Below, one piece after another: positions 17,499 through 55,732 of a stretch of 64,000 nt of DNA. Within the stretch, counting starts at the first letter, position 1. Each line of letters opens with the position of its first letter. The notes below the pieces were generated by a model. That model saw only the letters and a program-made list of their open reading frames with translations, did no database searches and was not told the origin of the DNA. The translations under genes and the position numbers were made by a program. This stretch comes from Eremomyces bilateralis CBS 781.70. Taxonomy: Eukaryota. Location: assembly GCA_010015585.1 (NCBI GenBank), contig ML975150.1, one strand, 5' to 3'.

Positions 17499-18943
17499 TC
17501 AGGGCGCAAACCAAAGCTTATGCCCACACGTTCGATCCATCTTGTCGGCCCAGGTCTTTGCCCTCTCGAACATCCACCCGGACTTCACCTCAAGCTCTCC
17601 AGATTCGGCGGCGGTTTTCTGGCCAAGGAGGGCGTATTTTGAAACGAAACACTTGCCGTCAGTGTATTTAAACTGGAGGCAGCTCTTTTGACTTTGGCAG
17701 AGAGCGCGGCATGACTCGAAGGACTTCGGGGCATCACGCTCAATTTGGCCTTTCATCTTTCGAGGATCCTTTCCGTTGGGTATCTTGGTATCCCCAACGT
17801 ACACGACATCGTTCGCGAGATTGTCCCAGTTCTCTTTCTCGTTACGTAGCTGGGGTAGGATGTAATGACGGAAGACATCGCGATGCCGGATAGGGCCGTT
17901 GTGCTTTAGCCCCGTTAGTCTACGTATACCTAGAGAAATTGAAGAAAGGCGTCCCGTACCTCACGGAACCAATTGTTCTCAAAAGCTGCAAAGGTTAAGG
18001 CTTCCTCCGCTGGGACGTGATGATATGTTACGGCCGGAAAGCACCAAGCAACTCTGTGCGTTTTCCAGGTCGCGTGATCGAAGGTAGACGGCCGCATGTC
18101 CTGAAAATGAGGCCAAGCATATGTTAATGGGACGCCGGCGTCCATTAAAGTTTTCCCCAGCACGCAATCGCCGGCCCAATGGACCTCAATTAGATCGTTG
18201 TACTCTATCATATGGTCCGTCCAATGTTGTGTGACCATGCGCATAGCCGGGTTCGAGATCGCGAATCCTGCACCTCCGTAGCCGAATATGGTATCTCCAA
18301 TGTACATGTGCCGTCCCAGATAGTATGGTTTGGAGGCATCGAGGTGGGTGAGGTACTCGAGGAGATTCGACCAGATTATATACGTATCGGGTTCGAGAAA
18401 CACGAACCATTTGGCGTCCGGGTCGTGATTCAACGCCTTCGAGACCATTGGGAGAAATTTCCACTTGTCTAGCCTCCATCCTGGATTGTCCGTATTCCCA
18501 GCACCATTAGGAGCAGATATTCTCGACAATGCCTCTTCATCCAACCCCTGGCGTCCTTGCTCATGCAAATGCCTGTAAATTTCGAAGTCCTCGATATTGT
18601 TCTTCGTCCCATCTTCTACCTCGTCGAGCACATCGTATATATGGTACCCTTGAATGTCCTCCTCCAGGTCGGAATAGATAACGTAGTTCGGGGCGCAGCG
18701 GAGGGTCGTGTTGAAGTGGACCGGCAGCTTCTCTAAAGCTTCCGTGGCACCGGTTCGAAGGACGACGAGAACATCGTTCGCGAAGTCCGGCTCAGGACAG
18801 CGACCCTGACTGCCTGGTCGGACGAAGGAGGTCGATGGCGCGGAGGAGCTCGACCCTACCCAGCAGAGTCGTAGAATGACCACACTCAGGACGGCGGAAC
18901 AAAAAACGACGAGGCGACCGAGTCGACCTAGCATAAACGGCAT
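17499..18943 (-). CDS. Glycosyltransferase family 31 (Fringe-like), type II membrane protein
   Basis: VLRTGATEA, GWRLDKWKFLPM, KWFVFLEPDTY, YGGAGFAIS, WAGDCVLG, AVTYHHV; one intron near 17.9 kb. Confidence 0.85.
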
Positions 18944-20289
18944 AGCGGCCCTGCCATGGACATGGGATGATGGAAATAGGTGCCGTCGAGGCGATCCTCC
19001 GTGAGAACTAATGAGAACTAACGTATGAACGACAGATCCAGAAATATTCACAAGAAATAGACGATCATAAGCGCAGCTTCGGGATCAAAAGGAGTAGATT
19101 CTCGTCTGTACACAGGACCACAAATATGTTTGTAGTCGAATGGCTGTTGACGTCGGTCTTATCCAACCTCCGTCCCAGCTGCCCCTGGTCCACCCTGGAT
19201 CGGAAAAACTGATAGTAATAGTTACGGATAACTAAGTTATTGAGTCGCTAAGCTGTAAGGTATGGTTTAAACTCTACACAAAGGGGGTGAGCTATCAACA
19301 TCCATAACTACGTAACCAAATGCCACCCCGATTCCAACTCTATTTTCAGTAACCCATTGCACCCCGACATAGACCTGCCCATAAACTCTCAACGGTATCC
19401 TGCCGCGGGGTTTTTACCCTCTATATCCTCACTCCTTTGGCAAATGCATAGACTGGTTTCAGGTTATTCAAAAAGAGCTAGACGATCCTATTGTCGTGCT
19501 AGGGAACGTGTATAACATGAGCGAAACGGGAGTCCTCTTAAGTGGTGCTGGCCCAGTGCGGAGACTGTTAAGGGCATGGCCTATGGTTGGCATAGGCTGA
19601 GAGCCTAAGCCTAATCAAGCCTAGTAGCGTCGAGATGGAACCTCATCAAGATTCCTCTGTCACAGATACCTTTACTCTTTATCTCAATCAAGAATATCTT
19701 TGGCTATGTGTATGTTGTGTGCATCCAGCTACCGTGCCGTAACAGAGACAGCATAAAAGGTTAGGGGATGCATTGGAGGATGCTCGATACGAAATTAAAG
19801 TATCGGGGCGAGGCGAATATTGTTCTAGGCAACTTTGATCGCGATTCGATTGAATAGATATGGGCAACTTTTATAGAGGCTTTCTTTAGTGAATAATCGA
19901 GTTTCCAGTGGGTGTTGTGAGCAGCGGAAGCTACATGATTCTGGTGTGATGAAACTCGATGTTATTGGACAATAATCGAGACGGCTTTGCGCGAAGTGTA
20001 TCCGGCTGGGGGATGCGGCTTGCGGCTTGCGGCTGTGCATGTAGTATGTACTGACCAGTTCGTCGCAAGGCTGCACTTGAATGCTCTTTCTCTTGTTCAT
20101 ATTTGCCTTTCTAGATCCTAATGATGTCAATTGCAGTCAAAGTGATATACAATCATTTCACAGAAGACGCTCCAGGTACGGGTCAGTCCTCGTTGCGATG
20201 GTACCCTAGGTGAAGGTCGCATCCCGTCAACGCGAGAGCATGTTGATTTAGAATCATATGCTGCCTGTGGTTCGATACGATCACGCCAA

Positions 20290-21374
20290 ATGGTATACAT
20301 CAAACCAGTCTATCTAAGCATATCATTAACCTGACACAGGAACAATCTACAGCAGAGGAGGATCGGGTACAGCTCCAAACGATCAACCGTCTCAAAGAAA
20401 GTCTGAGGAACGGGTGCATAGCCATCATTGTCGGAGCCGGTATCACGATAAACGCAACAGTGCAGTCCTCAGGACATCCACTTGAGCGGATAACGTGGAA
20501 TGGGCTTGTCAAGCATGGTTTGGACTATCTAGTGACAAACCAATATGTGGATAGGAAAAATAGGCAGGTCAAGTGCGCACTAGATCTGCTCGAGAGCGAG
20601 GATACGGAAGATCTACTTCTTGCCGCCCATATACTCCGCGAAAAGTTGGACCGGTCTAGCCAACTTCCGACGTGGCTCGAATCCGTCTTTGGTGATCTCT
20701 ATGGCGACGTTCGCTACCCTGCAATACTTGACGCGCTCCGGGCACTCCATAAGAAGCGCGCTCTACTCTTGACAACGAATTACGATGACCTCTTAGAAAA
20801 GCATTGCGAACTCCCTAGAATCGGACGATCTAGTAGAAATAATGTGGCCAAGTTTCGACGAGGAGAGCTGGATGGCGTGTTCCATGTTCACGGTAGTTTC
20901 CACGACCCCGAGGAGGTCGTGTTGGGCTCAATAGACTACTTCAAAGTCAAGCAATCAGAAGCAGTACAAGATCTACTGCGAACGTATTTACAAGACAAGA
21001 CTATCCTCTTCGTTGGGTGCGGGTCTGGACTGGAAGACCCCAACTTCAACGAACTTCTGCGAAAGGCGAGCGAGCAACAGAGAGACCTACCGAACCGTCA
21101 TTGTTTACTTATTCGAGACGGTGATTCTATCAGATATAATCCTTTGGTGTCTGTCAAATACGGTTCGAGTTACGGTGGTTTGGCACCATTTCTCCATAGA
21201 TTGGCAAGTGAAACCCCAGATGAGTCTATGACAGGAGAGGTTGTCTCGCTTAGTGACCACCAGAAAGAGATCCTGTTGAAGTCTCTGAGGTTTGACCAAA
21301 TGGATGCTCGCCAGATGCAATCTGGAACCCCATCACGATGGACGACCGTTAACACTCTCGTTGTTGTGCCGTAA
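20290..21374 (+). CDS. SIR2-like (SIR2_2-type) domain protein ending in a truncated pre-NACHT linker
   Basis: IIVGAGITI, LLTTNYDDLLE, VFHVHGS, LFVGCGSGLEDPNF; inferred ATG exon plus intron 20293-20339 is in frame with ORF 20460-21374. Confidence 0.8.
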
Positions 21375-22088
21375 TCCTTGTACAGTATGATTAGGAATGC
21401 GATGCAATTTCCAGACCTGAATTTCTACTTTACTAGTAATTCTCTCTTGTCATAGCGATAACTGCATTATTGCGATACAATTTCCAACCGGAACTCCTAA
21501 TTTACTCGTACTTCTCGCTTGCTATAGTGATAACCGCGTGTCAACGCTTGAATTCGACTGTCGGAATGGGCTCGCGCTATCGAGAGTTAACAGTAGTACT
21601 CAACGTTTCTCGACCACTAACTACAGGAACCGTTTACATCATAGACGCATTACAAAGCACTCGTTTCCGAGATGTCCGCTACGAGATCGGTTAACCTACG
21701 AATAAGACCTCCAAACTATCCAAAGACAAGATAGCGAAGCTTTCCGCCCAGCGGCTCGGCTCGGCCCGCCCCGCTGATTGCCAGAACGCAGCACCCAAGG
21801 CGGGTGATTTGAATTCCCGGTCTAGGATTCGGATCAAGTCACGGTTGGTCAAAGCATAGGCTGGAAGTAGAATCACGAGCGGCGAATCGGAAGACGTCCC
21901 TATGGAGGTATCGGATATCTATCGACTAGCGAAGGAGATCATGCAAAAGCCGTGGCGAATCCGCCCCAAAGAATGATAAAATACGTCTTTCGCCTGCTGT
22001 ACTTTCATTCATTGTTGTTCCTTTATTCCTCACAACGCTCTTTTAGGTTTTCTTATATTTTTCCTTGTTAGGGTGTTGCCTGGATACA

Positions 22089-23126
22089 ATGACACTCCGC
22101 TGGATCAGGACAGCCATAGGGGGCATATGCCTCTTACTGTCTGTCGATGTCGCCCCTGCGACGCCAGGAACGCCAAGGCTCAGAAAACCCGCCAGTCCTG
22201 ACTACCACGGTAGAGACGCGTGTCCCGTGGCTTGCAACATAGCAGGACCCAACCCTCGAATTGGTCTGCCTGCCACAATTTCGAATAGGTTCAGTCCTGG
22301 TAGCACACCGTATTTTACGAGTTCTCGCTATATCATCCTGTGGATGATGCAGATACTCTTCATCGCATCTATACTTGCATTTCTTATGGCGCGGACTGGT
22401 ATAACCTCCCACACTTGGAAGCAAACACTACGGTTGCCGTCGAGTCTATGAACTCTACCTACAATTTGGGCTGGTGGGCCGATGGCGCACTCGCCGCCGC
22501 CGACATCAGGAACGTATCCAGGTAGATGTCCTATTATCTAAAGCGTGAGCATACCGATACCAAGAGCAACACAGTGTTGGCCCAGTCAGGCTCGGCCTCG
22601 GTCGGTCTTTACATCGGCAAGGGTCTATAGGACGAAGGCGTCGGCTCCTTCGCTCTCGAGTACATGGAAGACCATATTCGCAGCCTCGGAGTCACCCCCG
22701 GAAATGTGGCTATGCAGTTACCATATGCGAGCCAAACTGGAGCGGTGCCCGCACTTCGGGGGTGTTCGCTTCGGGTAATGTCACCTTTACCCCCGTGCAG
22801 GATGCAATGAAACTTGGCCCATGGGAAGCTGCCTCTCATTTCACGAGGCCAAGAACATTACCAGTCCGGCCGTCCTCGCCACTCATTTACAGTCAAAGAC
22901 GGTTCATCCGAGCTCTACAGCAGCCACCAGCTCTCTGCCAACCTTACGAGCCCAATTAGGAGCTCAGGACGAATGTAGAACTGTCCAGGTGGAACTGAGT
23001 GATAGTTGCGCTGCTTTGGTCGCAGAGTGCCGCATTTCCCCAGCAGACTTCACCAGAGACAATTCCGATCCTAGCTTCTGTCCAACTCTTAAGCTAGGAC
23101 ATTTCGGAGATCGGATGTATGGCTGA
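22089..23126 (+). pseudogene. Decayed N-terminus of a LysM-containing subgroup C chitinase (killer-toxin alpha-like) gene
   Basis: Signal peptide, CPVACNIAGPNP, RIYTC, LysM-like CRTVQVELSDSCAALVAECRISPADF..N...FCPTL; split across frames with stops and no GH18 domain follows. Confidence 0.7.
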
Positions 23127-24152
23127 ACCGCCGAAGTGCTGATGGCTGAATCACCTGCACAATGAATTTGCCTGGAACATGCAGTCCGGATTATCACCCA
23201 TCTTAGGCGGTCTTTGAATATCAAAACTCAACAAGGGGTCAAGGTTCTCCCGGTCCCGCGATCTAGCCTAAATGGATCAACGGAAGATAGCCGAACTGAT
23301 CCATTTTCGCGGAGCGGGAGCCGCTGTTGCTCTTGAGACTCGGTGGCTCGTGCTGATAAAGCCATGAATGATGAAACTCATGAAGGTGATGAAGCCATGA
23401 AGGGGATGATCTGAATATCTGATTGCTCATAGCATGTGCTGCAAGGACGGTATGTGTTAAACATGGATGGTTTATTGATCATAACAGACTTCATACTGCA
23501 ATCTGAATTCTGGTTTATATTGCAAACGAAACTTGGAAGCATCATCACTTCATCGCCATGCCACATCAGTTGGTTCCTTTTCTCTCCCCCTACAAATCGA
23601 ACATCCGAGTGGACAGACAATATCTAAATCTGAAAATAACTGTACACCAACGCTCAGCAAACACCCTAGGGACTAGTCCTCGGTGTTGGCGGATCGGCTT
23701 AGTTCCTGGACTAACGGTTTAAGCTTCACGATCTGATACCATAACCAACCCACAGTTATAATTGGCTCCAGTTGGAGCAAACTATTAACTGTAACTGGTA
23801 ACCGCTAACAACGAGGATTGCAATCCTTCCATTCGGAGCCGCCAGTGTCATCCGTGTATTTGCCAGTTTGGGCATGATCAAGAACGGTAAACTGAGGCTG
23901 TGGTTGTCGGTGAGACAGACTCATGAGTCCCAGCATCATCTACCAATATCCCGCTGCGGCATCCTTAACTTCTTCAAAGACCTCAAAGTTTTTTGACTCA
24001 TATCCAATGTGTCCCTTCTTCCATCCTCTTCAGTTTGTGCGAATATCATGCGTCACTGTTAAATCAGTCCCGTTAACTTGATCGTGAAATTCACGGCATC
24101 TAATATGCCTCCTTATTCCTCATAGTCGTCTTGGTACTTCGTACGGCCTCTA

Positions 24153-24201
24153 TCCTCCTCCTCCTTCTCCTCCTCCTCCTCCTCCTTCTCCTCCTCCTCC
24201 T
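24153..24201 (+). repeat. (CCT)n microsatellite
   Basis: About 16 CCT/CTT units upstream of the ATG at 24248. Confidence 0.9.
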
Positions 24202-24247
24202 CATTGACTTGCTATCCGAAACAAATTCCTTCCTGTCAACCGACGCG

Positions 24248-25179
24248 ATGCGGTCTCTATTGTTCTCAATAGCCTCTCTTATTCTATTCACATCCTCCTG
24301 CTGTGCGCAGGAACAAGTACCCTATATCCTCCATACTACCCCTTACGACAATATCAACGGATCATTCGTCTACCCTCGCGACTGGCCATCAAACTTCTCG
24401 ATCGGTTCGCAGATCAATATCACTTGGACGACGCAATTCCCATCTGTCCACCTATATTATTACCAGAATCGCAAGATCGCCGAGATCGTAAATATAGGAA
24501 GTGAGTGCCCTCTTTCAAATCCGTATCTTGGACTCTATTAATGCTGATACAGAGGCCCTCGTTCAACCCTGGTGCCTATGGGAAGTCCAGACCACCGTGA
24601 AAAATCTCACTGACCCCTGGGTCTTCCGCATCGTCAACGCCAAGGGCACGCTGTATGACCGGACAAACCTTGGCTTCACCAGTGCCGGATTCTACATCGA
24701 CCGAGATACCAACCCAGCCCCGTCTTCTTCCTTCACCCAATCCGAAACAACCGCCCCAACCAGACTCAATCGCCCATCATACCTCCCTAGCCGAACTCCC
24801 TGCCCAAGATCCCGAGCCACCTAGCAAGGACGGCCTATCCGAAGGCGCGAAGATTGGCATCGGCGTAGGTGCCGGCGTCGGCGTCCTCACCCTCACTATT
24901 GCTGGCATCGCACTCTTGTACTTCCGGAGGCAAAAGGGAGCGAACAAGGAGCATCTGAACGAGACGTATACGCCGGTCTAGCAGCTGTCGTCCGACTCGA
25001 AGGGGCCGGATTCAACACAACTGGCGAGTCATTACTCTCCTCACGATGGCCCTCACAAGGGACCTCAAAACTCACCTCGCACCTCACCGCCCAGTGTGCC
25101 TCTCCACGTCCCTATCAAGACAGATTCAAACCCAACGTATGAGTTGCCTGGGGACCTTATACAGCCACTGAAACCGTAG
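24248..25179 (+). pseudogene. Single-pass membrane protein (Mid2-like layout), apparently disrupted
   Basis: Signal peptide, S/T-rich linker, GLSEGAKIGIGVGAGVG TM helix, C-terminal YELPG; frame change near 24770 and in-frame TAG at 24979. Confidence 0.6.
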
Positions 25180-25644
25180 CGAGTCTTTGAAATGGCTGCT
25201 TTCCTTCACTAGTACCCGCTCATAGCGTAATACCATCTCCGTGGAAACCTCAAGTTGCACTAATAGACGACCGAAGACACAGGTCTTAATCTTTTTCATG
25301 TCCATGTAAATAGCCTGGCAAGCGAGTTTAACGATCGATGGGGTTTATGTTCGGCGCGGATTGCAGATTGTGGGTTGCGGGTCCTCGCATAAGTTATCAC
25401 AGCATCCAACACTGTCAGCGTTATCGAACATTCAGACATTGCATATGGTAGCCGAACGACATGCTCCATTGATTTCCGCTAGCTGCATAGTGTCTGCATA
25501 TGCCAAAGTGAGTTGAGACCTACGTGCAACAATTCAATGCCCAATCCGCAATTTCCGTAGATTCCCAAGCATGCGGACTGGCGCAGCAAGCCAACCATGG
25601 CCATCATCGCAGGACGCCAGTTCATAAATCCACATTACCCACCC

Positions 25645-28600
25645 TCAGAACAACACCTCCCCCACCTCCTCGCTCCCCGCCCTCGTCCTCCCCTTCCCAT
25701 CCCCCCCCGGCGCATTCAACAACCCCTCCTTCCCCATCGTCGAACTCACATCCTCCGTCTCCGCCCCCTCCAGTAAATCCCGATCCGCCGCCCGCACGCT
25801 CCGCTGATCCGCATCCCCACCGTACGCTCCGCCCGGCGTCCGCTCGTCCGGCTCCGCCTCGTCCTCCTCATCCTCCTCCTGCGCAGCCCCTCGATCCAGC
25901 TCCTTCTGCGCCTCGTCCATTCGCCGCCGAATGTCCGTCGCCACGCGCATCCCGTCGGTGACGATGTTATCCAGCACGCCACGCAGGCCCTTTCCAGGCG
26001 GAACGACGCCGGCGGTGGAGGGGAGCGGGCTGCTTGGGCCGGCGCCGACGCCCGGGGTGAAGCGGCCTAGGTTGGCGAAGGTGGTGAGGGTGGAAGAGGC
26101 GGTGGCGGCGGGGGCGTCGGAGAGGCGGAAGGAGTTGGCGAGAGCGCGGTCGAAGAAGTGCTCGAGGGTTTCGTCGGCGAGGACGAGCATGCGGAAGGTG
26201 GGGAGGGTGATGGAGAGAGGGTTGGAGGGGTCGAGGGCCGCGTTGGCGGCGGCGGGGTCGCGGCGGGGGAGGGAGGAGGCCGAGTCGCTGGGGGTTTCGG
26301 AGGTGGACGCGCCGTTTGGCGGGGAAGAGGCGTGCTCGGGCTTGGGGGTTGAGGTGGAGGTACCGTCAATCTCGATGAGGGCTTCGTCTTCGTCTTCCTC
26401 TTCCTCTTCGTCTTCACCAATGCCGAAGTTGCTCAGTGCCGACGTAGAGTCATCGATTTGCTTGGAAGGATGGTCGGCGTCTGCATATTCGAAGCAGCGT
26501 CTGATAAAGGCGGAGACACTCGACAGGAATTGTTCATCCCGATTCTCAATGCGAAGTTCGTCCGCTTCTATGCTGCTTCCCATCCTTGCGTCCGATTGCG
26601 GACTCGCTGCGGGGAATGGAGTCTCAAACCCTCTTCTTGACAGGAACAGCAATGCTTCAGACATGCTAAGGATGCCTTCGCGGTCTATCTTCCCATCTCC
26701 ATCATCGTCGTACAAATCGAAGAAATAGCTGATGTTGGCCATGATGTCTTTCGTGCCTTTCATATGGGCGAGACCGGTGACAACATTTTGCAGGGTGAGC
26801 GTGTCGACCGAATCGACATCCCATTTCCGGAAAAGCCGCTTCATGAAATCGTGATCGGCTGGCTCGGGGCCGGCGCCCCACGGAGAAATGGTAAGGCTCC
26901 GAGATCTCATACTATTCCCGAAATATGATGCCTTTTCACCATCGACATGGGACGAGGGTGACGAAGGCGAGTCGGTGACTGCCCATTTTGCAATACCTGG
27001 CACCAAATTAGCAGCTGAAGGCCGCTAGGAAGATCGCGGAGATAGACTCACCAGCAAGGAACTCTCTGAAAGCAGCGTAGTCCATTTGTGTCGGACTTGG
27101 ACCAAGAGCAACCCTACCCATCTCCGGCTCGTCGCCAGATACACCTGACACAACTTCTGTTGCTTTTATTCGGCCACTCTTCTTTTTCCTATCCATCTCT
27201 TGCTGGATCATTTGCGTTCGCTGCTGGCGTTCATAGAGGACACCATAGAAACGGTCGTAGAGGAATCCGAGATCGTTTAGACTTAGTCGCTTACTATCCG
27301 GCCCAAGGTTCCGTATTGACGTCCGCTTTGCGAAGTTCTCGATGTTTTCTAGGACCGCGTCTTTATGTTTCGCTCGCTGTTCGGATATGGTTCCCTGTGT
27401 GATGCCGGAGAATTCTTTGAACGCCACCACCATTAACTCCTGAAACCGCGTAACCGCTCGTAATTTCGGGTTCTCTGATTTCGGATGCGCCGACTCGTCA
27501 AGGCGTGAGAAGTACGTCTTGAGAACGGATATGAACGTTCCGTCGTCGGCCGCGTCGAGCAGCTCTTCGCCGTTTATGCGGAGAATGGCCAATCCAATCT
27601 GAAACAAGACTTTCGGCCCTTCCAGGAAGAATACGTCGAGGACACGGTATGCAAAAATGAGAGGCATGGAGTTGATATACAGTGACAAAAACCAGGGTAG
27701 GGAAACCACCGAAAGCTGCACGTCAGACTTCACCAAATGATCCCACAGGATGGGCATCGTCCCCTCGACCAGTGATTCGAAGACTTTCTGATCGAGAAGG
27801 GTGCCATACATGGTCATCGAATAGTATCCCGGGAGCATTCGATCGCAGAGCACGGACAAAACGAAAAATGCCTGTGCTTCGGACATGTATATCAGAAGTG
27901 CCGCCACGACGATGTTCATTGCCTGGCAATAGCCAACTTCCGGGTTCAACCAGCTGTACGCAACGAGAACACGGCGCAATCGGCCAATTCCTTCCTCGCT
28001 CTGGAATCCCGGGTACTCCGGCAAACTCCTGTTCAGGTCTTTCTCAATCTCATCGATTGCAAGGGACTGTTTCCCCTCGTGCTCCTTGAGCATCTCCGCA
28101 TATAGATCCGGATTCTGGAATCGAAGAAACAGAGAGCCGGACGTGAGTTCCCAGATCTCGCCTCGAAGTCGGTTCGGCAATCCCACGCGAATCAGCTTAT
28201 GAAATGTCGGTTGGCGGACTATGGTGGCATTCCGCCCATTTTCACGCATGTACTCCTTCCAAAGACGCATCTTCGCTTTGTCCCTCAGCTTCCGTGCATC
28301 GCCAGGATAGCGATATATCGCACCGAGGCCGGTGTCCGGGGGATCCCGCTGTGTTGTGGTAGACCCCTCCTTGTCAGACGTGGCTGTATCCGCTAAATGA
28401 TACTCCGAGTACAATTCTCCCACCACCTTATTCAGGTTCTGAGTATCCTTGTATGCTGCCCGGAGCCCTTTCTTCAACCCATCGCAGAATCGTTCGCATT
28501 GCTGTCGGCTGCCGGCAAGCTGCACGATCAATCTCTGTGGGTTCGGATTCGTCGATTGCTTTTTATCCACGTCCCGGTAGCCGTTTGATGTGGTGATGGC

Positions 28601-29047
28601 GAGGGAGAACTGGAAGCTCTGGCTATTCAATCGCTCGACCCTTCGAACGGCACACAGGGGCAACGTGAATCCATTCCCAGAAGGTCCCGTGCCGTGCGTC
28701 TGACCTGTAAAACTACTCGAAGAACTGGTGGTTGCCGTGCTCAGGAAGCTGGACCCTTGCGTCGAAAAACAGATATAGTGTTCGCTGAGGTGCAACCGTC
28801 CGACATAATGGTTCCCTCTCAGCTGACTGCTAACGTCGTTGGCGTCTTGTGGTTGTCGGCCGCTTCGGGGTAACGGCAGCGTGAGCTCCGATGTGATCTC
28901 ATACAAAGGGGATTCGCTGTCCGGCAGGCGGAATTGATGCTGGAACAAGGTGGATTTCGAGGGTGACTTGGACGGGGAGGCAGTAAGACCGGCGGTATCG
29001 ATCAAGGTCTGGGCCTTCTGGACGAGGGAGGTGAAGTTGTTGAACAT
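25645..29047 (-). CDS. GYP2: Rab GTPase-activating protein (GRAM-TBC-EF-hand), Gyp2/Mdr1-like
   Basis: IRVGLPNRLRGEIW, IEKDLNRSLP, GYCQAMN TBC motifs; EF-hand DDDGDGKIDRE; intron near 27.0 kb. Confidence 0.9.
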
Positions 29048-29733
29048 GGTGGAAGGTCGAGTCCAAGACGCGAGGTCCGGAACATGTTATATGCTGTACT
29101 TAACGACTAGCTGGCGGGCTCTTCAAAAGGTGGTTGATACATGGAAAAAGGGTAATTGTGAGTGCGGCTATGTGACGTTGGACATCGGAAACAATGGAGA
29201 AGAGGTGGGAAACGTTTTAACGGTACGTGACGCTCAGCAAGCTCCAAGCTGCTAGAAGCTTAAACGGTTAAATCTCCCGCCTCCCCGCGCTTTAAGGCTT
29301 TCTGCAGCCACACATGGTACGGAGTAATAATGTACCATCTTACGGCGCTTCATCCTCCCTGGCGTTAACACTTCCAACCTCCAGTTATGAGAACACCCAA
29401 GTTATGTCCACGGGTATTGTAGCCCATGGTGTTCAAGCGGATCTCATCATTCAATGTATGCATTGCAGGTAGGTCTCCTTCCTGAAGCTGTGCAGTGCAT
29501 GCTCTATCCACGACCATACCAAACCTCACAGTCCTCCATCCGATTGGGGGCCATCCCTGGCTGCATGATCACCTTCACAGCCGCCGGAGGAGGCTCAGCG
29601 GTTGCTGCGTTGCTGGACTAGTCTTTTAGCGATGGTGCAACAGACGAGGTATGAACCTCCGACGTCTTCGACGGGGCTGTCCTTCGTAGTAGATTTTGAA
29701 GTCTCCCTTCTCTGTTTTCCACGGTATGTTTCC

Positions 29734-31686
29734 ATGGATGATTGAGAGCACGTTACTGGTATGGATCCATTATCAATAGCCGCGGGCGCAACCGGGCTCG
29801 TCACTGCCTGTGTAAAGGTAGGCGACCGCATTGGCATTTCCCGTTGTATGTATATCGTTTGAATTGACCGGATGTGCAGATCTCTGCCGCCCTTTATACA
29901 TTCATCGACGACACTCGACATGTAGATGACAACCTAGTTGCGCTAAACGACGAAGTCCTCGGACTGTCGCGAGTACTGGGCGCAATATGCAAGAGTTGGA
30001 AACAAAGTCCGCTAACAGCGATAGCCCAAGCTGATCCAGATGGGTCGCTCTGGTCTAGTGTCAAGGCCTCACTTGATGACTGTGGGAGGACTTTGGGGAG
30101 ACTCGAGAAGAACGTGAATGATATCCAACAAAAGGATAGCTTTTTCGGGCGCCTGAAGGTCACAAGGTCTATCCGATTCAATCTGAAGGCAAAGGATGTT
30201 ATGGTCTTTCGTCAGCAGATCCAAACCTACAACGGCGCCATGCAAAGCTCCCTACAAATGATAAATGTGTTCGTAATGTCTCCGATCATCTGCATTCATG
30301 TACTAACTTGGACTCCCAAGGTGCCTACTCATATATGGACAATCTTCCCAAGACATGGTTATTCGTGGCCTTGACGGTCTCAAGGACCAACTTGGACGGC
30401 TCGAGTCCGAAATCGGGACCATGAATGCTCTGCAGGTTCCTGATGCATCCGGCCAAGAGATCCAATTCAACAGAAAAGTTACAGATACTTTACGACGCCT
30501 CGCAAGGGCAGCAGAAACCTTTCACTCAAGTGCTAGCACAGTAGCAGGTGGATCAACTGTTTGGGGAGGAAGCGTTTCCGGAGAACCTCTCCATCCTGAC
30601 CAATACCGCAGTATCGAAGAATGGATCCCTCCTCCTATTGAAGAAGAGTCTCCCGTGGAAACAGTATCGGAGACATCGAGGGTGACGTCGCCGTCTGCCA
30701 ACTCGTCGATAAACTATACCCTGTCGAAAACCATGAGGGCGACGACGCCATCTACAAATGTGTCGACCAATGTCCCAACAGCCCCTTCTACTATCCTGCC
30801 GGATGAGCATCCCGCAAATGAATCCGAGGACTCAGAATTAGATGTGGAAGCGGAACTGGCCAAGAAATTCGAAGAACTCGCATTGAGCAATTTTCGTCGG
30901 GAAGATTACTCGAAAGCAGAGCTGTTCCTAAGAAAGCTCGCTGCTCGATATAAAAACGACCAAGAATCGCCGGCAGCCATCGCCTCGATCGATTTGAAGA
31001 TTGCGTTCGCATGCTGTATGCAGTGGCGATGGGATGAGGCGGAGGCCATCGCATTCCCGTTGACGACGGGGAAAAGTCGCATTGATATCGCGCCTTTCCA
31101 CCTCCTTCATGCCATCGCATTGCAACGAATGAACGATGGAGGTGATGAGGGGCTCGGAAAAGCAATGAAGCTCTGCAAGAGAGCGCTGGGGGGTAAAAAG
31201 AAGCTTCTTGGGAAAAACAGCGAGTCGTTTCGCCAGACTACCGAACTGCTGGGCCGTATTTATGAAGCACAAGGAAACCACATCGAAGCGGAAGCCTGTC
31301 GTGAGCTCTACCCGGCCCCGGCTTATGCGGATGACAGCCCGGCTCGACTCGACGCTCGCAATTACTTGACGGAAAACGTAGACTTGCAGGTTAAGTCTCT
31401 CCCTCCGCCCGAGAACCCGAAAGGACCGTTATTAGGAGATATTCAAAGTTCCGGAGGATTATCCCCTCAGCGCGTCCCCCTTGAAGGAGAAACGTCGAGT
31501 CCATCAGCCCTGTTGCCCTCGAGAGACGAACCTCGTGACACCAATGAGGGCGCTACTACTTTGTTCGATCGGGAACGACTAGCTAGCTCAACCCAGAGTA
31601 GAAGCCCCTTCGGCCGCCATCCCCCCGCGCCCCGCGCCCTCTCGCCCCCTGGCCCCCCTTCCGCCCAGCTGTCTCGGACTAGGTGA
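29734..31686 (+). CDS. HeLo-like (fungal STAND N-terminal) domain plus TPR-like helical protein, multi-exon
   Basis: MDPLSIAAGATGLVTACVKIS N-terminal helix, L.DC..TL..LE; later AMKLCKRALGGKKKLLGK...LLGRIYEAQG TPR-like helices; no P-loop seen. Confidence 0.7.
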
Positions 31687-47119: not shown

Positions 47120-48388
47120 CCAAGCCAAAAGTCTGCGCACAGACCCCTTACTTTGACAATCAATAACTTTACCAAAATGAGGTCTTTTGGCACAAAAATA
47201 AGTGATAATCGAGGGCCTAATAAGGAGCTATCAGTTGCTCAAAGAGCTGGGGTTGTTCAGGCTGCTGAAGATGGGAAACCAAAGACTGAAATCGCGCGCA
47301 ACTTTCGCGTCTCTCGAAGCGCGGTGTATGGGACCCTAGAGAGGTGGGAAGAACACCAAACCACCGTATCTTTACCCCGTAAAGGGAGTCCCCATAAGCT
47401 ATCACGCTCTGGCGAACGGCATATCGTTCAAATCGCGCGTCGATTTCCTGAAATGGAATATGGAGAGCTCCTCGCAGGTATTTCGTACCTCCGCGTTTCT
47501 AGGAAGACTATCTACCGAATCCTTAAGAAATATCACCTTACGAAATGGCGAGCGAAGAAGGGACCTTACCTAAAACCCTACCACGTAAAAGGCCGCCTCC
47601 GATTTGCCCACGAATTCCTTGAATTCGACTTCTTCAGGACCCACTCTACAGACGAGTGCTCGTATGAGAAGGGGACAGGCGGTAAGCAGGTATGGGTATG
47701 GCGCCTGTACCACGAAGCGTATGAGTCGCGAATGGTAGAGCCAAAGACGTCAGGGAAGGTGATTTCGTAGATGATTTGAGGCTTAATTTCGCGTGATGGG
47801 CGATCAGATCTGGTGATTATGGACCGCGACGAAACCTCCGCAAGACAGGGCTATTCCGCAAAATCCTACATCGCTGCATTAGAGGAGAGACTCCTCTCTA
47901 CGTACGAACCCGGAAATGTTGTTATCCAGGATAATGTAAAGATCTATACGGCTAAAATTACCTAAGAATGGCTGGAGACGCACGGTATCTGGGTCACCGA
48001 TTGGCCGGCCAATTCCCCAGATATTAACCCTATCGAGCATATATGGCATCTATTGAAAACCAAGGTCCTAGAGCTCCACCCTGAATTAAAGCCGATAGGC
48101 ACCTCAGAGGAGGCACGGGAGGCTATGAATGCGGCGTTAGAGGAGGTATAGTGGGCGATCCCTTAGGAGACGATCCGAGAGCTGATCGACTCAATTCCGC
48201 GACGTCTACAGGCGGTAATCAAGGCAAAAGGGTGGCATACGAAATATTAGATATTTCCCAATTAAGAAATCAAAAAAGTAGACTGAATTTGCATTTGTAT
48301 GTGTTTTGCAGCGTATCTAAAGATACGGTGTATAGCGATTAGATTTGGTGATTTTCGGGGGTGTGTGCAGACATTTGTCTACTTAGTG
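47120..48388 (+). mobile_element. Tc1/mariner (Tc1-type DDE) transposon relic with RIP-type stops
   Basis: ORF 47177-48250 with HTH, TDECS, QDN, SPDINPIEHIW, GWHTKY; internal TAG/TGA/TAA; imperfect TIRs at 47125-47147 and 48357-48388 followed by TA. Confidence 0.9.
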
Positions 48389-48533: not shown

Positions 48534-49496
48534 CTATTGCTTGAAAAAATCATTCATGTCAACGTCTTTATCGAACACTCCCACAGCTGCAGAAGAGTTT
48601 CTTTGTGTTGTTACATCCCTGATCCGCAGGTTGACCTTTCCGACAACACTCTCAGGTAATCCTACCAAAGCTCTCGAATCGTCGGACGTTATGATGTTGG
48701 AAATATCATGGCCTGTCCGTTTGGAGCGCACTTGTGAGAAAAGAGCAGCAGAAGCCACCTGATCAGCCTCGAAGAGGCGTGACTGTTCTTCAACTTCCTG
48801 AATGGCTAGGGTTCGCTGTGCACCACCATCTTCTTCGTCGTCTAGCCCTTCCTGTAGCCCTTGCACACGCTTTTGTGCGTCACCTTGCTGCTTCTTGGTA
48901 AGATCTATATGCTCTTGGATCTTGGCCTCGAGAGCCTGCAACTGTGCCTTCAGTTTCTTGCGATCAGTCTCCGACGTTTGTTCGGAGCGGAGTTGAACGA
49001 TTCTTTCTAGAGAGTCAGCATACATCCGCGGAAGTGATATAAGATAGCTGACCTACAATTGGGTACTTGTGACGGCAAAATGGACCGTAGTCTGGCAAGA
49101 CTGGACCTGCATTCTGAACGTCCGGAATTTTTCTCTATTCCACACGCCGACTGAAAGGCGATCTCTAAGGGAGAGTTGTGTGCCGCCGGAATGTTTCGTC
49201 CATCGCTTTAAATTGTCCGTAAATTTGGCGCATGCCTGGCCGCAGTTGTTCACGGCTTCGACGACACCGGTCTTCTCCAGATCCACTTTGGCTGCGGTAT
49301 ACATTGCTGCGTCTGAAATGATGAGATCCTCCAGGGCGGCCAACGGGCGCTGCACACCCTCTAAGTTTGAAGCAATATCTTGTACTACATCTTTAGCCTC
49401 AGCAAGATTGTCAATGAAGTTATGAAGTTGGACGATGCTGGAGATAGCAAACGTCGTAATGCCTAGAGTGCTTGCAGTAATACTAAGAGGATCCAT
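48534..49496 (-). CDS. HeLo-like domain effector with C-terminal two-repeat HET-s-like amyloid motif
   Basis: MDPLSITASTLGITTFAISSI N-terminal helix; inferred intron 49003-49056; C-terminal HDISNIITSDDSRALVG and LRIRDVTTQRNSSAAVG followed by an aromatic FF tail. Confidence 0.8.
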
Positions 49497-49911
49497 GGGT
49501 TCTGGTTCGAGGACGTGAGAATTAATGAATGGAACCCGTATGAAATCAGAAGAATCGTAATAGAAGAACGGAGATGTTTCTCTGATAGATACCTACGGAT
49601 GGATGGATTTTCGTAAGCATAAAATGGACGAGGCTGTTGAGAAAGGCGAACGGGCTGTATTTCTGTTGGGACTGAAGGCTGCTGTTCAGATGAGGTGATG
49701 CTGCACGGCTCCAACAAATCATTGTGCATGGCTGAACGCTGCCGTTAAGCGAGCCAGACGAAGCATTTAATTAGAACCGCTTCGAATTGGGAATAACAGT
49801 TTTGTTGCTGGACATCCCATGCTGTCTTGATGCATCACAAATGATAATAGTGCTGATCCTCAAAGCACTAGTTAGCAAAGGCTTGTGTTATTATCGCCAC
49901 TGTGAAGCCGT

Positions 49912-52900
49912 ATGGCGGGCAGCACTCAACACATCAGCAGCGTGTCCATCGACAACCACTCCCAGGCTGCAGTGGGTACCTTCCAAGCACCAGTGTATAT
50001 AGGGAACAAAGAAAGCGAGTATTATAGCTGTACACTAGATGACGAGGCTAATCGGTCGTCTAGATCTGAACGATGCGCTCAATTCCCTCCCTATTGCTAA
50101 GGACGCGGCGTTCGACACCTATTACCGACATGAGCCGACCTGCCTTCCCAATACCCGCGTCGATCTCCTCAAAGATATATACAACTGGGCAGATGGAGAC
50201 AATTCGCCGACCATCTTCTGGCTGAGCGGTTTGGCCGGCACCGGCAAGTCCACAATCGCGCGAACGCTGGCTGCTAAGTACTTGGACACCGGCGGTATTG
50301 CAGCTAGCTTCTTCTTCTCAAGAAATGGTGGAGAAGGTGGATATTTACGTCATGGTGAAAGATTCGTTACAAGCATTGCAGTGCAGCTGGCCAGCAATGT
50401 ACCGCCTGCAAAACAGGCCATATGCGGTGCTATTTTTGCGCAGAGTAACATCGCCAGCCGGGCTCTCCGCGAACAATGGCGGCATCTCATTCATAGGCCA
50501 CTATCGGAGCTACCAGACAGAAACTGCCAGTCTCGATATATCCTTGTCGTTGACGCGCTTGATGAGTGCGAGAACGAGAACGACATCCAGACCATTTTAC
50601 AACTATTAGCGGAGACTCGGTCCTTAGAGACGGTCCAGCTTCGAGTGTTCCTAACCAGCCGGCGTGAGATTCCGATCCGGAACAGCTTCGTCCAGATCCC
50701 CGATGATGTGTACCAGGATGCTATCCTCCACGAAATATCGTCGTCGATTGTCGATCATGATATCCGAATTTTCTTGCGGCACGAGCTCGAACAAATTGCT
50801 CGTACGCACGGTCTCCCTGTTAGTTGGCCTGGCGACCAAGTCGTTGATCAACTAGTTGGCAGTTCATGTGGGCTATTCATCTGGGCGGCAACTACATGTC
50901 TCTTTATCAACGAAGCCAGAATGTATGCTCCAGATCGCCTATCTATAATCCTCAAGGCCGACTCTGCGGATGACTCGGCAGACGGGTTGTCTTCAGATAG
51001 CTCCACGACAGATGATAAGAATGACGATCCCGTAATGGCTCCACAACAGCACCTAGACAAACTCTACATCACAGTTCTCCGGAGTTCTGTCCAGAAATAC
51101 AAGAAGCCGGAAAGAAAGAAATGTCGCAAGCTACTAGGAACAACCATGGAGACCATTGCTGTCCTATCTTCACCTCTATCTACCCACTCATTAAGCAAAC
51201 TGCTTGACACTACGCAAGAAGGAATACACCAAATACTGAACGATCTTCATTCGATCGTGGACGTTCCAAAGAATTCGACTCATCCACTGCGTTTACATCA
51301 TCCATCATTCCGCGACTTCATCCTTAACCCAAAGCGATGTGAGGATTTAAAGTTTAGAATTGACAATAAGCAAGTGCATCGGACCCTTGCCATGCAATGC
51401 ATACAGCTTATGTCCAAAACTTTTAAACAGGACGACATATGCTGTATAGGCCATCCAGGTACGCTTATAACCCAAGTTAAACACAGCCAAATAGAACAAC
51501 ATCTTCCTCCTGAGATTCAATATGCTTGCCTCCACTGGATCCAACATCTCCAGAGGGGTGGGTCACAGCTTAAAGACACCGACCAAGTACATACGTTTTT
51601 GCAGAAGAATCTCCTTCGTTGGCTTGAGGCTCTCGGATGGATGAAGAATGTTTCTAAGGGGATTCATGCCATTGTTTCTTTGGAGTCTATGGCAGCGGTA
51701 AGCCAGGGTCAAATAAGATACGAATACTTGGCTAACTTACGCTTAGTCGCATAAATGTCTACGACTATTCGAGTTTGTTCATGATATAAAGCGATTCGTT
51801 TTATATAACCGGTCAGCGATCGAGCAAGCTCCTCTCCAGACATATTGTTCTGCACTTATATTTGCGCCAGAGGCGAGTATTGTACGGATACAGTTTAAGG
51901 GCAGCATGCCCCAATGGATGCGAAGATTACCAAAGGTAGATTATGATTGGAATGCGTTGCTGCAGACGCTCGAGGGCCATTCGGCGGGGGTCCACGCCGT
52001 GGCCTTCTCGCCGGACGGCAAGACGCTGGCGTCGGCATCGAACGACAAGACGGTCAAACTGTGGAACGCCGTGTCGGGCGCACTGCTGCAGACGCTCGAG
52101 GGCCATTCGACCGGGGCGATGGCCATGGCTTTCTCACCGGACGGCAAGACGCTGGCGTCGGCATCGTGGAACGGGATGGTCAAGCTGTGGGACGCCAGGT
52201 CGGGCGCTCTGCAGCAGACGCTCGAAAGCCACTCGAGCGGAGTCATGGCCATAGCCTTCTCGCAAGACGGCAAGACGCTGGCGTCGGCATACGGGGACGG
52301 GATGGCCAAGCTATGGGACGCCGAGTCGGGTGTGCTGCAGCAGACGCTCGAGCGCTATTCAATCCCAGACATAGCTCTGGTCTTCTCATGGGACAGTAAG
52401 ACGCTAGCGTCAGCATCATGGGACGGGACGGTTAAGCTATGGGACGCCAGGTCAGGCGCGTTGCTGCAGACGCTCGAGGACCATTCGAGCCAGGTTAATA
52501 CCGTGGCCTTCTCGCGAGACGGCAAGACGCTGGCGTCGGCATATGGGGACGGGACGATCAAGCTGTGGGACGCCGGGTTGGGTACGCTGCAGCAGACGAT
52601 CGAGGGCCATTCGAGCGGAGTCCCGGCTATAGACTTCTCGCGGAACGGCAAGACGCTGGCGTCGGCATCGGCGGATATGACTATCAAGCTGTGGGACGCC
52701 AGGTCGGGGGCGCTGCAGCAGACGCTCGAGGGCCATTCAAGCCTGGTCATGGCCGTGACCTTCTCACGGGACAGTAAGACGCTGGCGTCGGCATCGGTGG
52801 ATAGGACGATCAAGCTATGGGACACTGGGTCAGGCACACTGCAGCAGACGCTCAAGCGCCATTCGAGCCCGGTTAATACCGTGGCCTTCTCGCGAGACGG

Positions 52901-53897
52901 CAAGACGCTGGTGTCGGCATACGGGAACGGGACGATCAAGCTGTGGGACGCCGGGTCGGGCGTCGTGCAGCAGACGCTCGAGTGCTATTCGAGCCCGGTT
53001 AATACCGTGGCCTTCTCGCGGGACGGCAAGATGCTGGCGTCGGCATACGGGAACGGGACGATCAAGCTGTGGGACGCCGGGTCGGGCGCCGTGCAGCAGA
53101 CGCTCGAGTGCTATTCGAGCCCGGTTAATACCGTGGCCTTCTCGCGAGACGGCAAGACGCTGGTGTCGGCATACGGGAACGGGACGATCAAGCTATGGGA
53201 CGCCGGGTCAGGCGCGCTGCAGCAGACGCTCCAGGGCCATTCGAGCGTAGTTAAGGTTATAGCCTTCTCGCCGGACGGCAAGACGCTGGCATCGGCATCG
53301 AACGACAAGACGGTCAAACTGTGGAACACCGGGTCGGGCGTGCTGCTGCAGACGCTCGAGGGCCATTCGTTCGGGGTCGTGGCCGTGGCTTTCTCACCGG
53401 ACGGCAAGACGCTGGCGTCGGCACCGTGGGACAAGACGATCAAGCTATGGGACGTTGGATCGGGCGTGCTACAATTGATACTCGAGGGCCATTCCCACCG
53501 GGTTAACGCCGTGGTCTTCTCGCGGGACAGCAAGACGCTGGCGTCTGCATCGGCCGACAGGACGGTTAAACTGTGGGACGTCGGATCGGGCGCAGTGCTA
53601 CAGACACACGATGTTGGGAATATCTGCTACGATCTCTCTTTCTCCGATAACGGCACTTCTATCCAGACGGACCGTGGATCCTGGCCTATTTTATCGCCTT
53701 TCTCTGATGGTACAGGTGTGACCAGTCCACAATATCTATTTTCTATCTTTGTTCATGACCAATGGGTAAGTAGCCATACCGAGCGGATCCTTTGGCTTCC
53801 TTCCGAGTATCGGCCAAGCGCGATTGCTGTTTATGAGGGTATTGTTGCTTTCGGTTATATATCTGGAAGAGTTATAACCATGGAACTTGCTTTGTAG
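49912..53897 (+). CDS. NACHT-WD40 NLR (NWD/HET-E-like) with short N-terminal amyloid-like motif
   Basis: CLPNTRVDLL, P-loop GLAGTGKST, Walker B VVDALDEC, HHPSFRDF, APLQTYCSALIFAP, 13 WD40 repeats; inferred introns 50015-50063 and 51698-51746. Confidence 0.92.
51957..53605 (+). repeat. Tandem 126-nt (42-aa) WD40 repeats, 13 copies, high internal conservation
   Basis: Recurrent gcagacgctcgag...ttctc...acggcaagacgctggcgtcggcat...aagctgtgggac with 126-nt period. Confidence 0.93.
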
Positions 53898-54161: not shown

Positions 54162-55732
54162 AGAGTATCCAAATGGCTGGTGAGATTTTACATTCCGTTT
54201 TTGAGATTTCACATACGGCTGGTGAGATGTCTCCCTCCGTATTTGAGATTTCTCCCACGCGCTAGTAATTGTAGAAATTAATCGCTCAACTGGACCTAGT
54301 GCGCAATTTCCTTTATTTTCGCCTAAGGGACAACTTCAATTAGTTATCAATGTTCAATCTATTCCTTCTCTCACAGACCTCAGCATGGAGGATATCATCA
54401 TGGAGGATATCACCCCTCCTCCAGATGGTCTTCACGCGTCTTATGAAGAAGCCTACAATGCTCTCAAAATTCATGGTATGCAGCATGGTTACGGCTTCGT
54501 TCTCAAACGGAGCAAACCTTACGGTTCTGATATAAAGACGCGATATTACTATCAATGTGATCGATCCGGAAACTATCAGTCAAGAGCAAGGATTCTAAGC
54601 ACAAGTACACGCACAATAGGGTGTAATTTTAGGCTTGTCATATTCAAAAACAAAAATGACGACCAGTGGAAGCTAGAGGTGCTACACGAGTATCACAACC
54701 ACCCCCGATCACTTAACCCTAGTGCGCATAATGTCTATCGCAGGCGTACATCAGCACAGAAAGACATAATTGAATCAATGACACATGCCGGGGTACGGCC
54801 GATGCAGATAATGGCTGCTATTCAAAAGGAGGACTCGGAAACGCTAGTCTCTGCCACCGATATCCGCAGCGAGAGGAAGGCAATTAGAGAAAAGCACTTA
54901 GATGGGAGGAGTCCGATTGAGACATTACTAGATGACTTATCTACGCCGGAATGGGTCTTTTCTGTTAAGAAGGACGCGGATAATCACGTACAAGGTCTCT
55001 TCTTTGCCCACCAGAAGCAGATCGAGCTACTGCTTGCGAATCCCGATATCCTATTAATAGACTGTACGTACCGAACCAAGTACAAGCTCCCGCTGTTGCA
55101 CATACTCGGCTGTACCAATCTATAGACCTTCTTCTCTGCCGGGTTCTGCTTCCTCCACAGCGAGAAAGAAGTAGATTACCATTGGGCAATCTCAAACTTC
55201 CTCCTCAAGACAGGGACACCGCAGCCACGCGTGTATATTAGCGATCAAGAGGATGCGGCGAAACTAGCAGCTCGCACTCTGTTTCCAAGTGTTCTATAAC
55301 TCCTGTGCGTATGGCATATCAACAAGAATGTGCAGACAAAGGCTCAAAAGACCTGGCGAGACGCTGATGGCGTGACAAAAGAGGAGAAGGGGAGAATCGC
55401 TGAGAAACGGGCTCAATTCATGAAACGTTGGAGTCAAGTATGCTCCCCGCTAATGGCCTCTTATAAGTCTTTTATAGAACTAACTAGAGCAGCTTGTCTA
55501 CGCAAAAGGACTACTTATATGTAAGCTGAAGTGGGACGAGTTACTCAAAGACTATGCTGACCAGCAAGAGCTTTGCCAATACTTACGCAAAATCAATGGC
55601 ATACACGCACTAAGTGGGCAGCTGCTTGGACGTCTCGGCATCGACATTACAATACAATTACCACTTCTCCTGTTGAAGGAATGCACAAGGTTTTAAAAGA
55701 CTACCTTATGACTTCAACAGGCGACTTCCTAT
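54162..55732 (+). mobile_element. Mutator-like (MULE) transposon, 3'-truncated, RIP-type stops
   Basis: FAR1-like YYQCDRSG...GCNFRL..HNHP; DCTYRTKYKLPLL; ISDQE; LCVWHINKN; TTSPVEGMH; in-frame TAG/TAA; 42-bp tandem unit at 54175-54257. Confidence 0.88.

What the first reader, a model, noticed from the sequence alone, without database searches (positions are those of the whole stretch)
20290..21374. SIR2-type putative NADase domain ending exactly where a NACHT domain should begin
Seen: SIR2_2-like motifs (GAG, TTNYD, HVHGS, FVGCG) without an evident sirtuin zinc-finger insert, followed by SLSDHQKEILLKSLRFDQMDARQ and then an abrupt end. Established: L.SL.F..MDAR is the linker that precedes NACHT in many fungal NLRs, and SIR2 domains of this type act as NAD-depleting effectors in bacterial defence (ThsA, DSR). 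Inference: a truncated or stand-alone effector derived from a SIR2-NACHT NLR, suggesting NAD-depletion immunity in fungi.
Basis: partly seen in the sequence, partly recalled or inferred. Interest (0 to 1): 0.7.

Follow-up and report, generated by a model that had tools for sequence, protein, structure and literature searches.

The report
Sensor-less fungal SIR2 immune-receptor fragment
This is a real, spliced fungal gene for an NAD-cleaving-type SIR2 domain related to human FAM118B, most likely the front end of an immune-receptor gene that lost its switch and sensor; the full-length design is already described, and whether this leftover still does anything is open.

Summary
ATG 20290, a 47-nt intron and an open frame to 21374 give a 345-aa protein: a SIR2_2 domain (Pfam E 2.8e-21, no zinc site), a short linker and a stop. 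The closest solved relative by sequence and fold is human FAM118B, ahead of ThsA and DSR2, and all five FAM118B active-site residues are kept. Residues 312-324 match the block that precedes NACHT in related NLRs, and no NACHT trace follows. Two DNA contigs confirm the junction; one RNA-derived contig is spliced and runs 305 nt past the stop with no further joint. The genome has 8 such domains, 5 of them on NACHT-WD40 or NACHT-ankyrin genes. Fungal SIR2-NACHT receptors are already in print (bioRxiv 2024.09.18.613514; supplement of PMC9815663), and this scan noted the full-length paralogues earlier. Best reading: a truncated, still transcribed NLR head with little activity of its own (0.55). Main rival: a free partner that works in trans with the SIR2-headed NLRs (0.25). 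NADase activity is inferred, not shown.

The parts
20118..20289 (+). Transcribed leader (lower bound of the transcript is not known); holds 5 upstream ATGs, one of whose frames overlaps the main start out of frame
   Evidence: X3 contig 20 covers 20118-20291 without a gap; ATGs at 20121, 20124, 20198, 20240, 20258
20290..20292 (+). Start codon, end of exon 1
   Evidence: Only ATG that opens the 345-aa frame in the spliced sequence
20293..20339 (+). 47-nt GT..AG intron
   Evidence: Skipped in one contig of run X3, present in DNA runs X1 and X2
20340..21212 (+). SIR2_2 / SIRim domain (P0001 residues 1-291), FAM118-like, with W53, N147, H184, D233, Y278
   Evidence: Pfam PF13289 E 2.8e-21; FAM118B E 7.8e-17 over residues 27-289; model pLDDT 83.9; Foldseek top hit FAM118B, TM 0.64
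21213..21317 (+). Linker ending in a pre-NACHT block (block 21273-21311, residues 312-324); predicted helix 306-323
   Evidence: Score-matrix test; codon positions; model
21318..21374 (+). 18-residue tail with no homology found, then the stop codon; approximate place of the inferred break
   Evidence: pLDDT under 50 from residue 318; no Pfam hit; no NACHT trace downstream
21375..21679 (+). Transcribed 3' region, unspliced, single-copy DNA (true transcript end not known)
   Evidence: X3 contig 20 runs 20339-21679 with no joint; one match in the genome
19566..19744 (.). Solo-LTR-like dispersed repeat 374 bp upstream of the RNA contig; link to the gene not shown
   Evidence: 179 bp, TG..CA ends, 5-bp direct repeat on both flanks; 17 other near-full-length copies among 50 matches

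Best explanation
The gene is the 5' part of a former SIRim-NACHT-repeat NLR, probably of the ankyrin class, that lost everything from the start of NACHT through a deletion or rearrangement. Promoter, first intron and SIR2 exon survived, so it is still transcribed as a short mRNA for a 345-aa protein. In intact relatives the sensor and NACHT are inferred to oligomerise on a non-self cue and cluster the SIR2 heads, which then cleave NAD+ into nicotinamide and ADP-ribose and trigger cell death or a signal. The orphan head probably still folds and binds NAD+, but has lost the device that clusters it. It is therefore a tolerated, mostly silent enzyme, a by-product of NLR turnover. Shown: gene structure, splicing, family, retained catalytic residues, missing NACHT. 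Inferred: the truncation (about 0.8), the clustering mechanism, low activity, lack of a selected role.
For: Pre-NACHT block retained just before the end. 5 of 8 genomic copies carry NACHT; the two others without one (L004, L008) also end near the domain boundary. Of 10 fungal-type metagenome loci, 8 have enough downstream DNA and 7 of these have a fused partner: 5 NACHT and 1 PNP by tblastn, 1 NB-ARC start read by eye. Most database proteins of about 300 aa are therefore probably first-exon gene calls and no proof of a stand-alone family. Three non-conservative changes at columns at least 97% conserved (G140R, D196G, W242K); only 1 of 144 fungal-type homologues has as many. FAM118B alone has no or very low activity and needs head-to-tail contacts (PMC12700824 section 22), so an unclustered head can be harmless. 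NLR genes are often broken and domain-shuffled in fungi (PMC13449251 passages). Five upstream ATGs may lower translation.
Against: The frame is fully open, with no stop or frameshift, on a terminal branch of about 0.4 changes per site, and all five active-site residues are kept. The three odd residues lie outside the active site. G196 is the usual state in the distant, bacterial-type rows (14 of 17), position 140 varies there, and FAM118B also lacks W at 242. The gene is spliced and present as one clean RNA-derived contig. No RIP-like dinucleotide skew in the coding region (TpA/ApT 0.80). No close orthologue or second strain was found, so the break cannot be dated.
Confidence: 0.55

Rival explanations
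1. The shortened gene has been kept as a free SIRim partner that acts in trans. It joins the SIR2 heads clustered by the five SIR2-NACHT receptors and amplifies NAD+ cleavage, as FAM118A does with FAM118B, or it dampens them as a decoy.
For: Open frame, intact active site, spliced transcript. Five SIR2-headed NLRs in the same genome. FAM118A plus FAM118B are far more active together than alone. The window copy lies outside the clade of the seven other copies (100/100), so it is a distinct paralogue.
Against: No interaction evidence. The FAM118 filament surfaces are reported as not conserved outside vertebrates (PMC12700824 section 8). The leftover linker has no evident use. No orthologue with the same end was found.
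Confidence: 0.25
2. It was never an NLR: an old stand-alone FAM118-like sirtuin whose tail resembles the pre-NACHT block by chance.
For: Vertebrate FAM118 proteins are stand-alone and are the nearest clusters by language-model features (0.96-0.97). The block scores below all seven training members (23.0 against 27.2-42.5). Whole-library and Atlas searches with the tail alone gave no NACHT protein.
Against: Top score among 78,748 13-mers and 0 of 20,000 shuffles. The protein sits inside the fungal clade (99/98), whose assessable members are nearly all fusions.
Confidence: 0.12
3. The gene is longer than it seems: a rare splice joins it to a downstream NACHT, for example the NACHT-WD40 gene at 50039.
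For: Other copies have an intron right after the SIR2 exon. Contigs drop rare variants.
Against: The RNA-derived contig passes the stop unspliced. No NACHT within 8.7 kb. The gene at 50039 is 28.7 kb away, behind other genes, and belongs to the WD40 class with another pre-NACHT block.
Confidence: 0.04
4. Assembly artefact, or a canonical deacetylase sirtuin.
For: The two DNA runs come from one sample that may be the source of the assembly.
Against: A contig from a second sample and study (X3) spans the same junction without differences. No CxxC, no PF02146 match here, and three canonical sirtuins of this genome branch apart (99).
Confidence: 0.02

Closest known systems
Clade A SIRim (SIRanc lineage) fungal and animal proteins with SIRim-NACHT/NB-ARC-repeat architecture (bioRxiv 10.1101/2024.09.18.613514, section 8 and passages read)
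   Same: N-terminal SIR2_2 domain without zinc site; GxG and xxNxD motifs; homologues and five paralogues with NACHT or NB-ARC plus ankyrin, WD40 or TPR repeats.
   Different: This copy has no NACHT and no repeats. Clade A membership is inferred from likeness to FAM118B and was not tested on that paper's tree.
Human FAM118B / FAM118A (PMC12700824, sections 8, 21, 22 and passages read; PDB 9r0p, 9r3e)
   Same: Best PDB match by sequence (E 7.8e-17) and fold (TM 0.64, 25% identity); W65, N163, H206, D255, Y307 align with W53, N147, H184, D233, Y278; also a single-domain protein.
   Different: 25% identity is below the 41% that defines the vertebrate FAM118 clade; filament formation untested here; carries an NLR-type linker.
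Bacterial antiphage SIR2 NADases ThsA and DSR2
   Same: Same fold (TM 0.51-0.59) and catalytic N and H; PADLOC ThsA E 5.3e-15, Dsr1 E 4.6e-10.
   Different: Sequence matches mostly cover only the central 120 residues; no SLOG/Macro or DSR sensor region; more distant than FAM118B.
Fungal NLRs with SIR2 as N-terminal annotation in the supplementary table of PMC9815663 (file 2, rows seen)
   Same: 8 of 9 rows found list SIR2 at the N-terminus, among them a 938-aa Cladophialophora immunda SIR2-NB-ARC protein of the same length and species name as P0018.
   Different: Those are multi-domain proteins; the main text never mentions SIR; the file was cut when stored.

Membership tests
SIR2_2 / SIRim subfamily | Pfam PF13289 over its cut-off | tested here: met
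   76.6 bits against 24.5
SIR2_2 / SIRim subfamily | No cysteine tetrad for zinc | tested here: met
   No CxxC; cysteines at 26, 79, 156, 227, 255; criterion
SIR2_2 / SIRim subfamily | GxG and xxNxD motifs, catalytic N and H | tested here: met
   G32, G34, N147, H184
SIR2_2 / SIRim subfamily | Sirtuin-type Rossmann fold matching SIRim structures | tested here: met
   All 35 listed Foldseek rows are FAM118B, DSR2, ThsA or KomC
SIR2_2 / SIRim subfamily | NAD+ hydrolysis | not testable with these tools
   Inferred from residues only
SIRim clade A (SIRanc lineage) | Groups with FAM118 in a SIRim-wide tree | tested here: inconclusive
   FAM118 is nearest by phmmer, Foldseek and Atlas features, but no FAM118 sequence was in my trees
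Vertebrate FAM118 clade | At least 41% identity to human FAM118 | tested here: not met
   25%; threshold
Vertebrate FAM118 clade | Head-to-tail filaments | not tested
Fungal NLR | N-terminal effector domain | tested here: met
   Same domain heads 5 NACHT genes in the genome
Fungal NLR | Central NACHT or NB-ARC domain | tested here: not met
   None in the protein or in 21315-30000
Fungal NLR | C-terminal repeat sensor | tested here: not met
   None
Canonical deacetylase sirtuin (PF02146) | PF02146 match, zinc module, clustering with Sir2/Hst | tested here: not met

The most novel reading that the evidence does not exclude
A sensor-less SIRim released from an NLR has been retained as a trans-acting partner that co-assembles with the SIR2 heads of the fungus's five SIR2-NACHT receptors and switches on or tunes NAD+ destruction, a fungal parallel to the FAM118A-FAM118B pair. 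It would also show how stand-alone FAM118-like proteins can arise from NLRs.
Probability: 0.15. Interest if true: 0.7.

Novelty: new member of a known kind. Interest (0 to 1): 0.3.

Why it matters
My seven literature searches (plus term look-ups inside seven papers) turned up no experimental test of a fungal SIRim. This genome offers eight copies, five on NLRs and three without NACHT, so NAD-based fungal immunity is testable here. The window copy is a natural, transcribed, single-domain version that is easy to express. On its own it most likely records ordinary NLR turnover; it would matter if it proved to be an active partner of the intact receptors.

Tried and rejected
Search for the lost half: the linker peptide and the junction DNA match only this locus in the genome. 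Pre-NACHT regions of 50 of the 68 NPHP3_N matches were fetched for that purpose and none was a recognisable partner; the other 18 were not fetched for it. Tail searches: the 59-aa tail against 1.84 billion proteins gave only the locus's own protein and a spurious repeat protein, P0164. The Atlas search on residues 296-330 scored 0.80 or less, with no NACHT cluster. A search with the P0013 linker-NACHT region returned only itself. NCBIfam gave no hit. The database gene model P0045 (413 aa) adds 68 N-terminal residues and needs a 34-nt intron at 20176-20209 (read off); the X3 contig is continuous there, so I prefer the ATG at 20290. RNA depth (312.8 against 26-44 for downstream neighbours) was not used to rank expression. 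Runs X4 and X5 hold next to none of the words and X4 laid nothing: no evidence either way. A basal position of the window copy in the quick tree was not supported in the careful tree, and a single clade with the seven paralogues is not rejected (p-AU 0.555). The 120 listed short homologues (of 236) were not taken as evidence of a stand-alone family. Look-ups of earlier findings by sequence, by words and near the locus were empty.

Full report
WHAT IS THERE. The window is fungal DNA; the database protein identical to this locus (P0045) is named Eremomyces bilateralis, and UniRef calls it 'Protein FAM118B'. A stop-to-stop frame runs 20247-21374 on the + strand. The ATG at 20290 is followed by a 47-nt GT..AG intron (20293-20339), which one contig of run X3 skips and the DNA runs X1 and X2 keep. 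The spliced frame gives 345 aa. I number residues on P0001, which starts at 20340 without the Met. The X3 contig covers 20118-21679, passes the stop and shows no other joint. It is one run from one study, its RNA label is a guess supported by the splice, and contigs show neither true ends nor levels. X1 and X2 (one sample, possibly the source of the assembly) cover 19718-24000 with no differences, so the end of the gene is real.

THE DOMAIN. Pfam finds only SIR2_2 (E 2.8e-21). PADLOC gives ThsA (5.3e-15), LmuA (1.1e-10) and Dsr1 (4.6e-10). Among solved structures the best match is human FAM118B (E 7.8e-17, residues 27-289), far ahead of ThsA and DSR2 (about 1e-6, central part only). An AlphaFold2 model (pLDDT 83.9, 96 sequences) ranks FAM118B first (TM 0.64, 25% identity), then DSR2, ThsA and KomC. 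The three nearest Atlas clusters shown are FAM118A/B (0.96-0.97). Reading the alignment by hand with the 20-residue offset of chain 9r0p_B, FAM118B W65, N163, H206, D255 and Y307 (PMC12700824 section 21) fall on W53, N147, H184, D233 and Y278, which are also the near-fixed states in 144 fungal-type homologues. There is no CxxC pair, PF02146 does not match here, and three canonical sirtuins of this genome branch apart. It is a SIRim-type domain; NAD+ cleavage is inferred.

THE END OF THE GENE. After the domain come about 35 linker residues and an 18-residue tail of low confidence. I collected 48 distinct regions upstream of NACHT Walker A motifs from this genome, metagenome loci and homologues; 7 share a block 56-61 residues before the end of that motif. 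A matrix from these 7 scores residues 312-324 at 23.0 (members left out in turn 27.2-42.5); 0 of 20,000 shuffles reach it, and it is the best of 78,748 six-frame 13-mers in the window. The blocks were chosen with a pattern written after I had seen the window sequence, so the test is partly circular. Searches with the tail alone found no NACHT protein. No NACHT trace lies in 21315-30000 (best E 0.55), the downstream DNA is single-copy, and I found no orphan other half among the NACHT loci fetched. The next NACHT gene starts at about 50039 and is of the WD40 class.

THE FAMILY. A search for longer relatives gave 43 hits among 8,000 candidates. Of the best 26 (34-61% identity), 15 carry NACHT or NPHP3_N, 1 NB-ARC, 6 PNP_UDP, 3 ankyrins only and 1 TPR only. 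The genome holds 8 SIR2_2 copies: 3 on NACHT-WD40 genes, 2 on NACHT-ankyrin genes, and 3 without NACHT, this one included. The seven others form one clade (100/100); the window copy is inside the wider fungal clade (99/98) but outside that one, though holding all eight together is not rejected (p-AU 0.555). A near-length search gave 236 hits, 120 listed, mostly about 300 aa. These do not prove a stand-alone family: of 10 fungal-type metagenome loci (of 53 found), 2 end at the contig edge, 1 is a partial domain, and 7 have a fused partner, often behind an intron.

RELIC OR WORKING GENE. For decay: three non-conservative changes at columns at least 97% conserved (G140R, D196G, W242K), matched by 1 of 144 homologues, and five upstream ATGs in the RNA contig. 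Against decay: an open frame on a branch of about 0.4 changes per site, an intact active site, no RIP-like skew, and the fact that the three positions vary in the wider family (G196 is the state in 14 of 17 distant rows). Without an orthologue the break cannot be dated. FAM118B alone has no or very low activity and needs head-to-tail contacts and FAM118A. An unclustered head could thus be both harmless and available as a partner. The FAM118 filament surfaces are reported as vertebrate-specific.

MECHANISM. Most likely (0.55): a SIRim-NACHT-repeat receptor lost its switch and sensor, and the head is still transcribed but is no longer clustered by a signal, so it has little activity and no selected role. 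Next (0.25): it acts in trans with, or against, the five SIR2-headed NLRs. Less likely: an old stand-alone gene with a chance linker (0.12), a hidden long splice form (0.04), an artefact or a deacetylase (0.02). The clustering model for intact receptors is inferred from general NLR behaviour (own knowledge) and from FAM118.

WHAT IS KNOWN. bioRxiv 10.1101/2024.09.18.613514 (section 8 and passages read) states that clade A holds fungal and animal SIRim proteins with NACHT or NB-ARC and ankyrin or TPR repeats, and predicts an immune role; its supplementary tables were not seen and may list this very protein. The supplementary table of PMC9815663 lists SIR2 at the N-terminus in 8 of 9 rows found (file cut when stored), and that of PMC12258605 lists one NLR with SIR2 (5 files not searched). 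The main texts of PMC9815663, PMC12258605, PMC12881547 and PMC13449251 have no word starting with SIR (term look-ups only). Bacterial SIR2-NACHT proteins are noted in bioRxiv 10.1101/2022.07.19.500537 (passages). Searches showed no experimental study of a fungal SIRim and no description of truncated copies; most subscription papers are outside that library. Earlier notes of this scan cover the full-length paralogues in this genome and reach the same literature; they are leads and not support.

VERDICT. A real, spliced, sensor-less member of a described family. The claim about NAD-depletion immunity in fungi is neither new nor shown by this locus. Novelty: new member of a known kind. Interest 0.3; 0.7 if the trans-partner reading (probability 0.15) were true.

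Noticed in passing
window 19566-19744: 179-bp solo-LTR-like element with TG..CA ends and a 5-bp target duplication; 17 other near-full-length copies among 50 matches in the genome; very high summed depth in the DNA and RNA-type runs. It lies 374 bp upstream of the SIR2 RNA contig and might affect its transcription (not tested).
   Followed up: partly
window 50039-53897 (+): NACHT-WD40 NLR gene with a long WD40 array and only a very short N-terminus before NACHT.
   Followed up: partly
window 48534-49592 (-): PigL_N (HeLo-like, recalled label) gene, E 1.5e-17, head-to-head with the NACHT-WD40 gene: looks like a two-gene receptor-effector pair; a short amyloid-type motif was not looked for.
   Followed up: no
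window 47120-48250 and 54247-55125: Tc1/mariner-type transposase remains and a FAR1/MULE-type transposase remnant on either side of the NLR pair.
   Followed up: no
window 22048-23853: Broken, cysteine-containing reading frames, covered by RNA-type contigs with a 53-nt GT..AG joint; they look like a decayed secreted LysM/chitinase-type gene (recalled likeness; Pfam and PDB searches gave nothing).
   Followed up: partly
L004 (G000:C23:10787-11659) and L008 (G000:C6:585595-586374): Two more SIR2_2 copies with no NACHT behind them; L008 loses similarity after residue 262; L004 faces an NB-ARC-TPR gene on the opposite strand.
   Followed up: partly
P0002, P0004, P0007, P0009, P0010, P0012: SIR2_2 fused to PNP_UDP_1, a tandem of a putative NAD-cleaving and a putative ATP-cleaving effector (6 of the best 26 longer hits).
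   Followed up: no
P0122, P0135, P0150, P0151, P0163: HMG-box plus SIR2_2 proteins in Pseudogymnoascus and Bisporella.
   Followed up: no
P0003, P0014, P0016, P0006: SIR2_2 joined directly to ankyrin or TPR repeats with no NACHT called.
   Followed up: no
window 17930-18946 (-): Fringe-like glycosyltransferase gene, divergent from the SIR2 gene.
   Followed up: no
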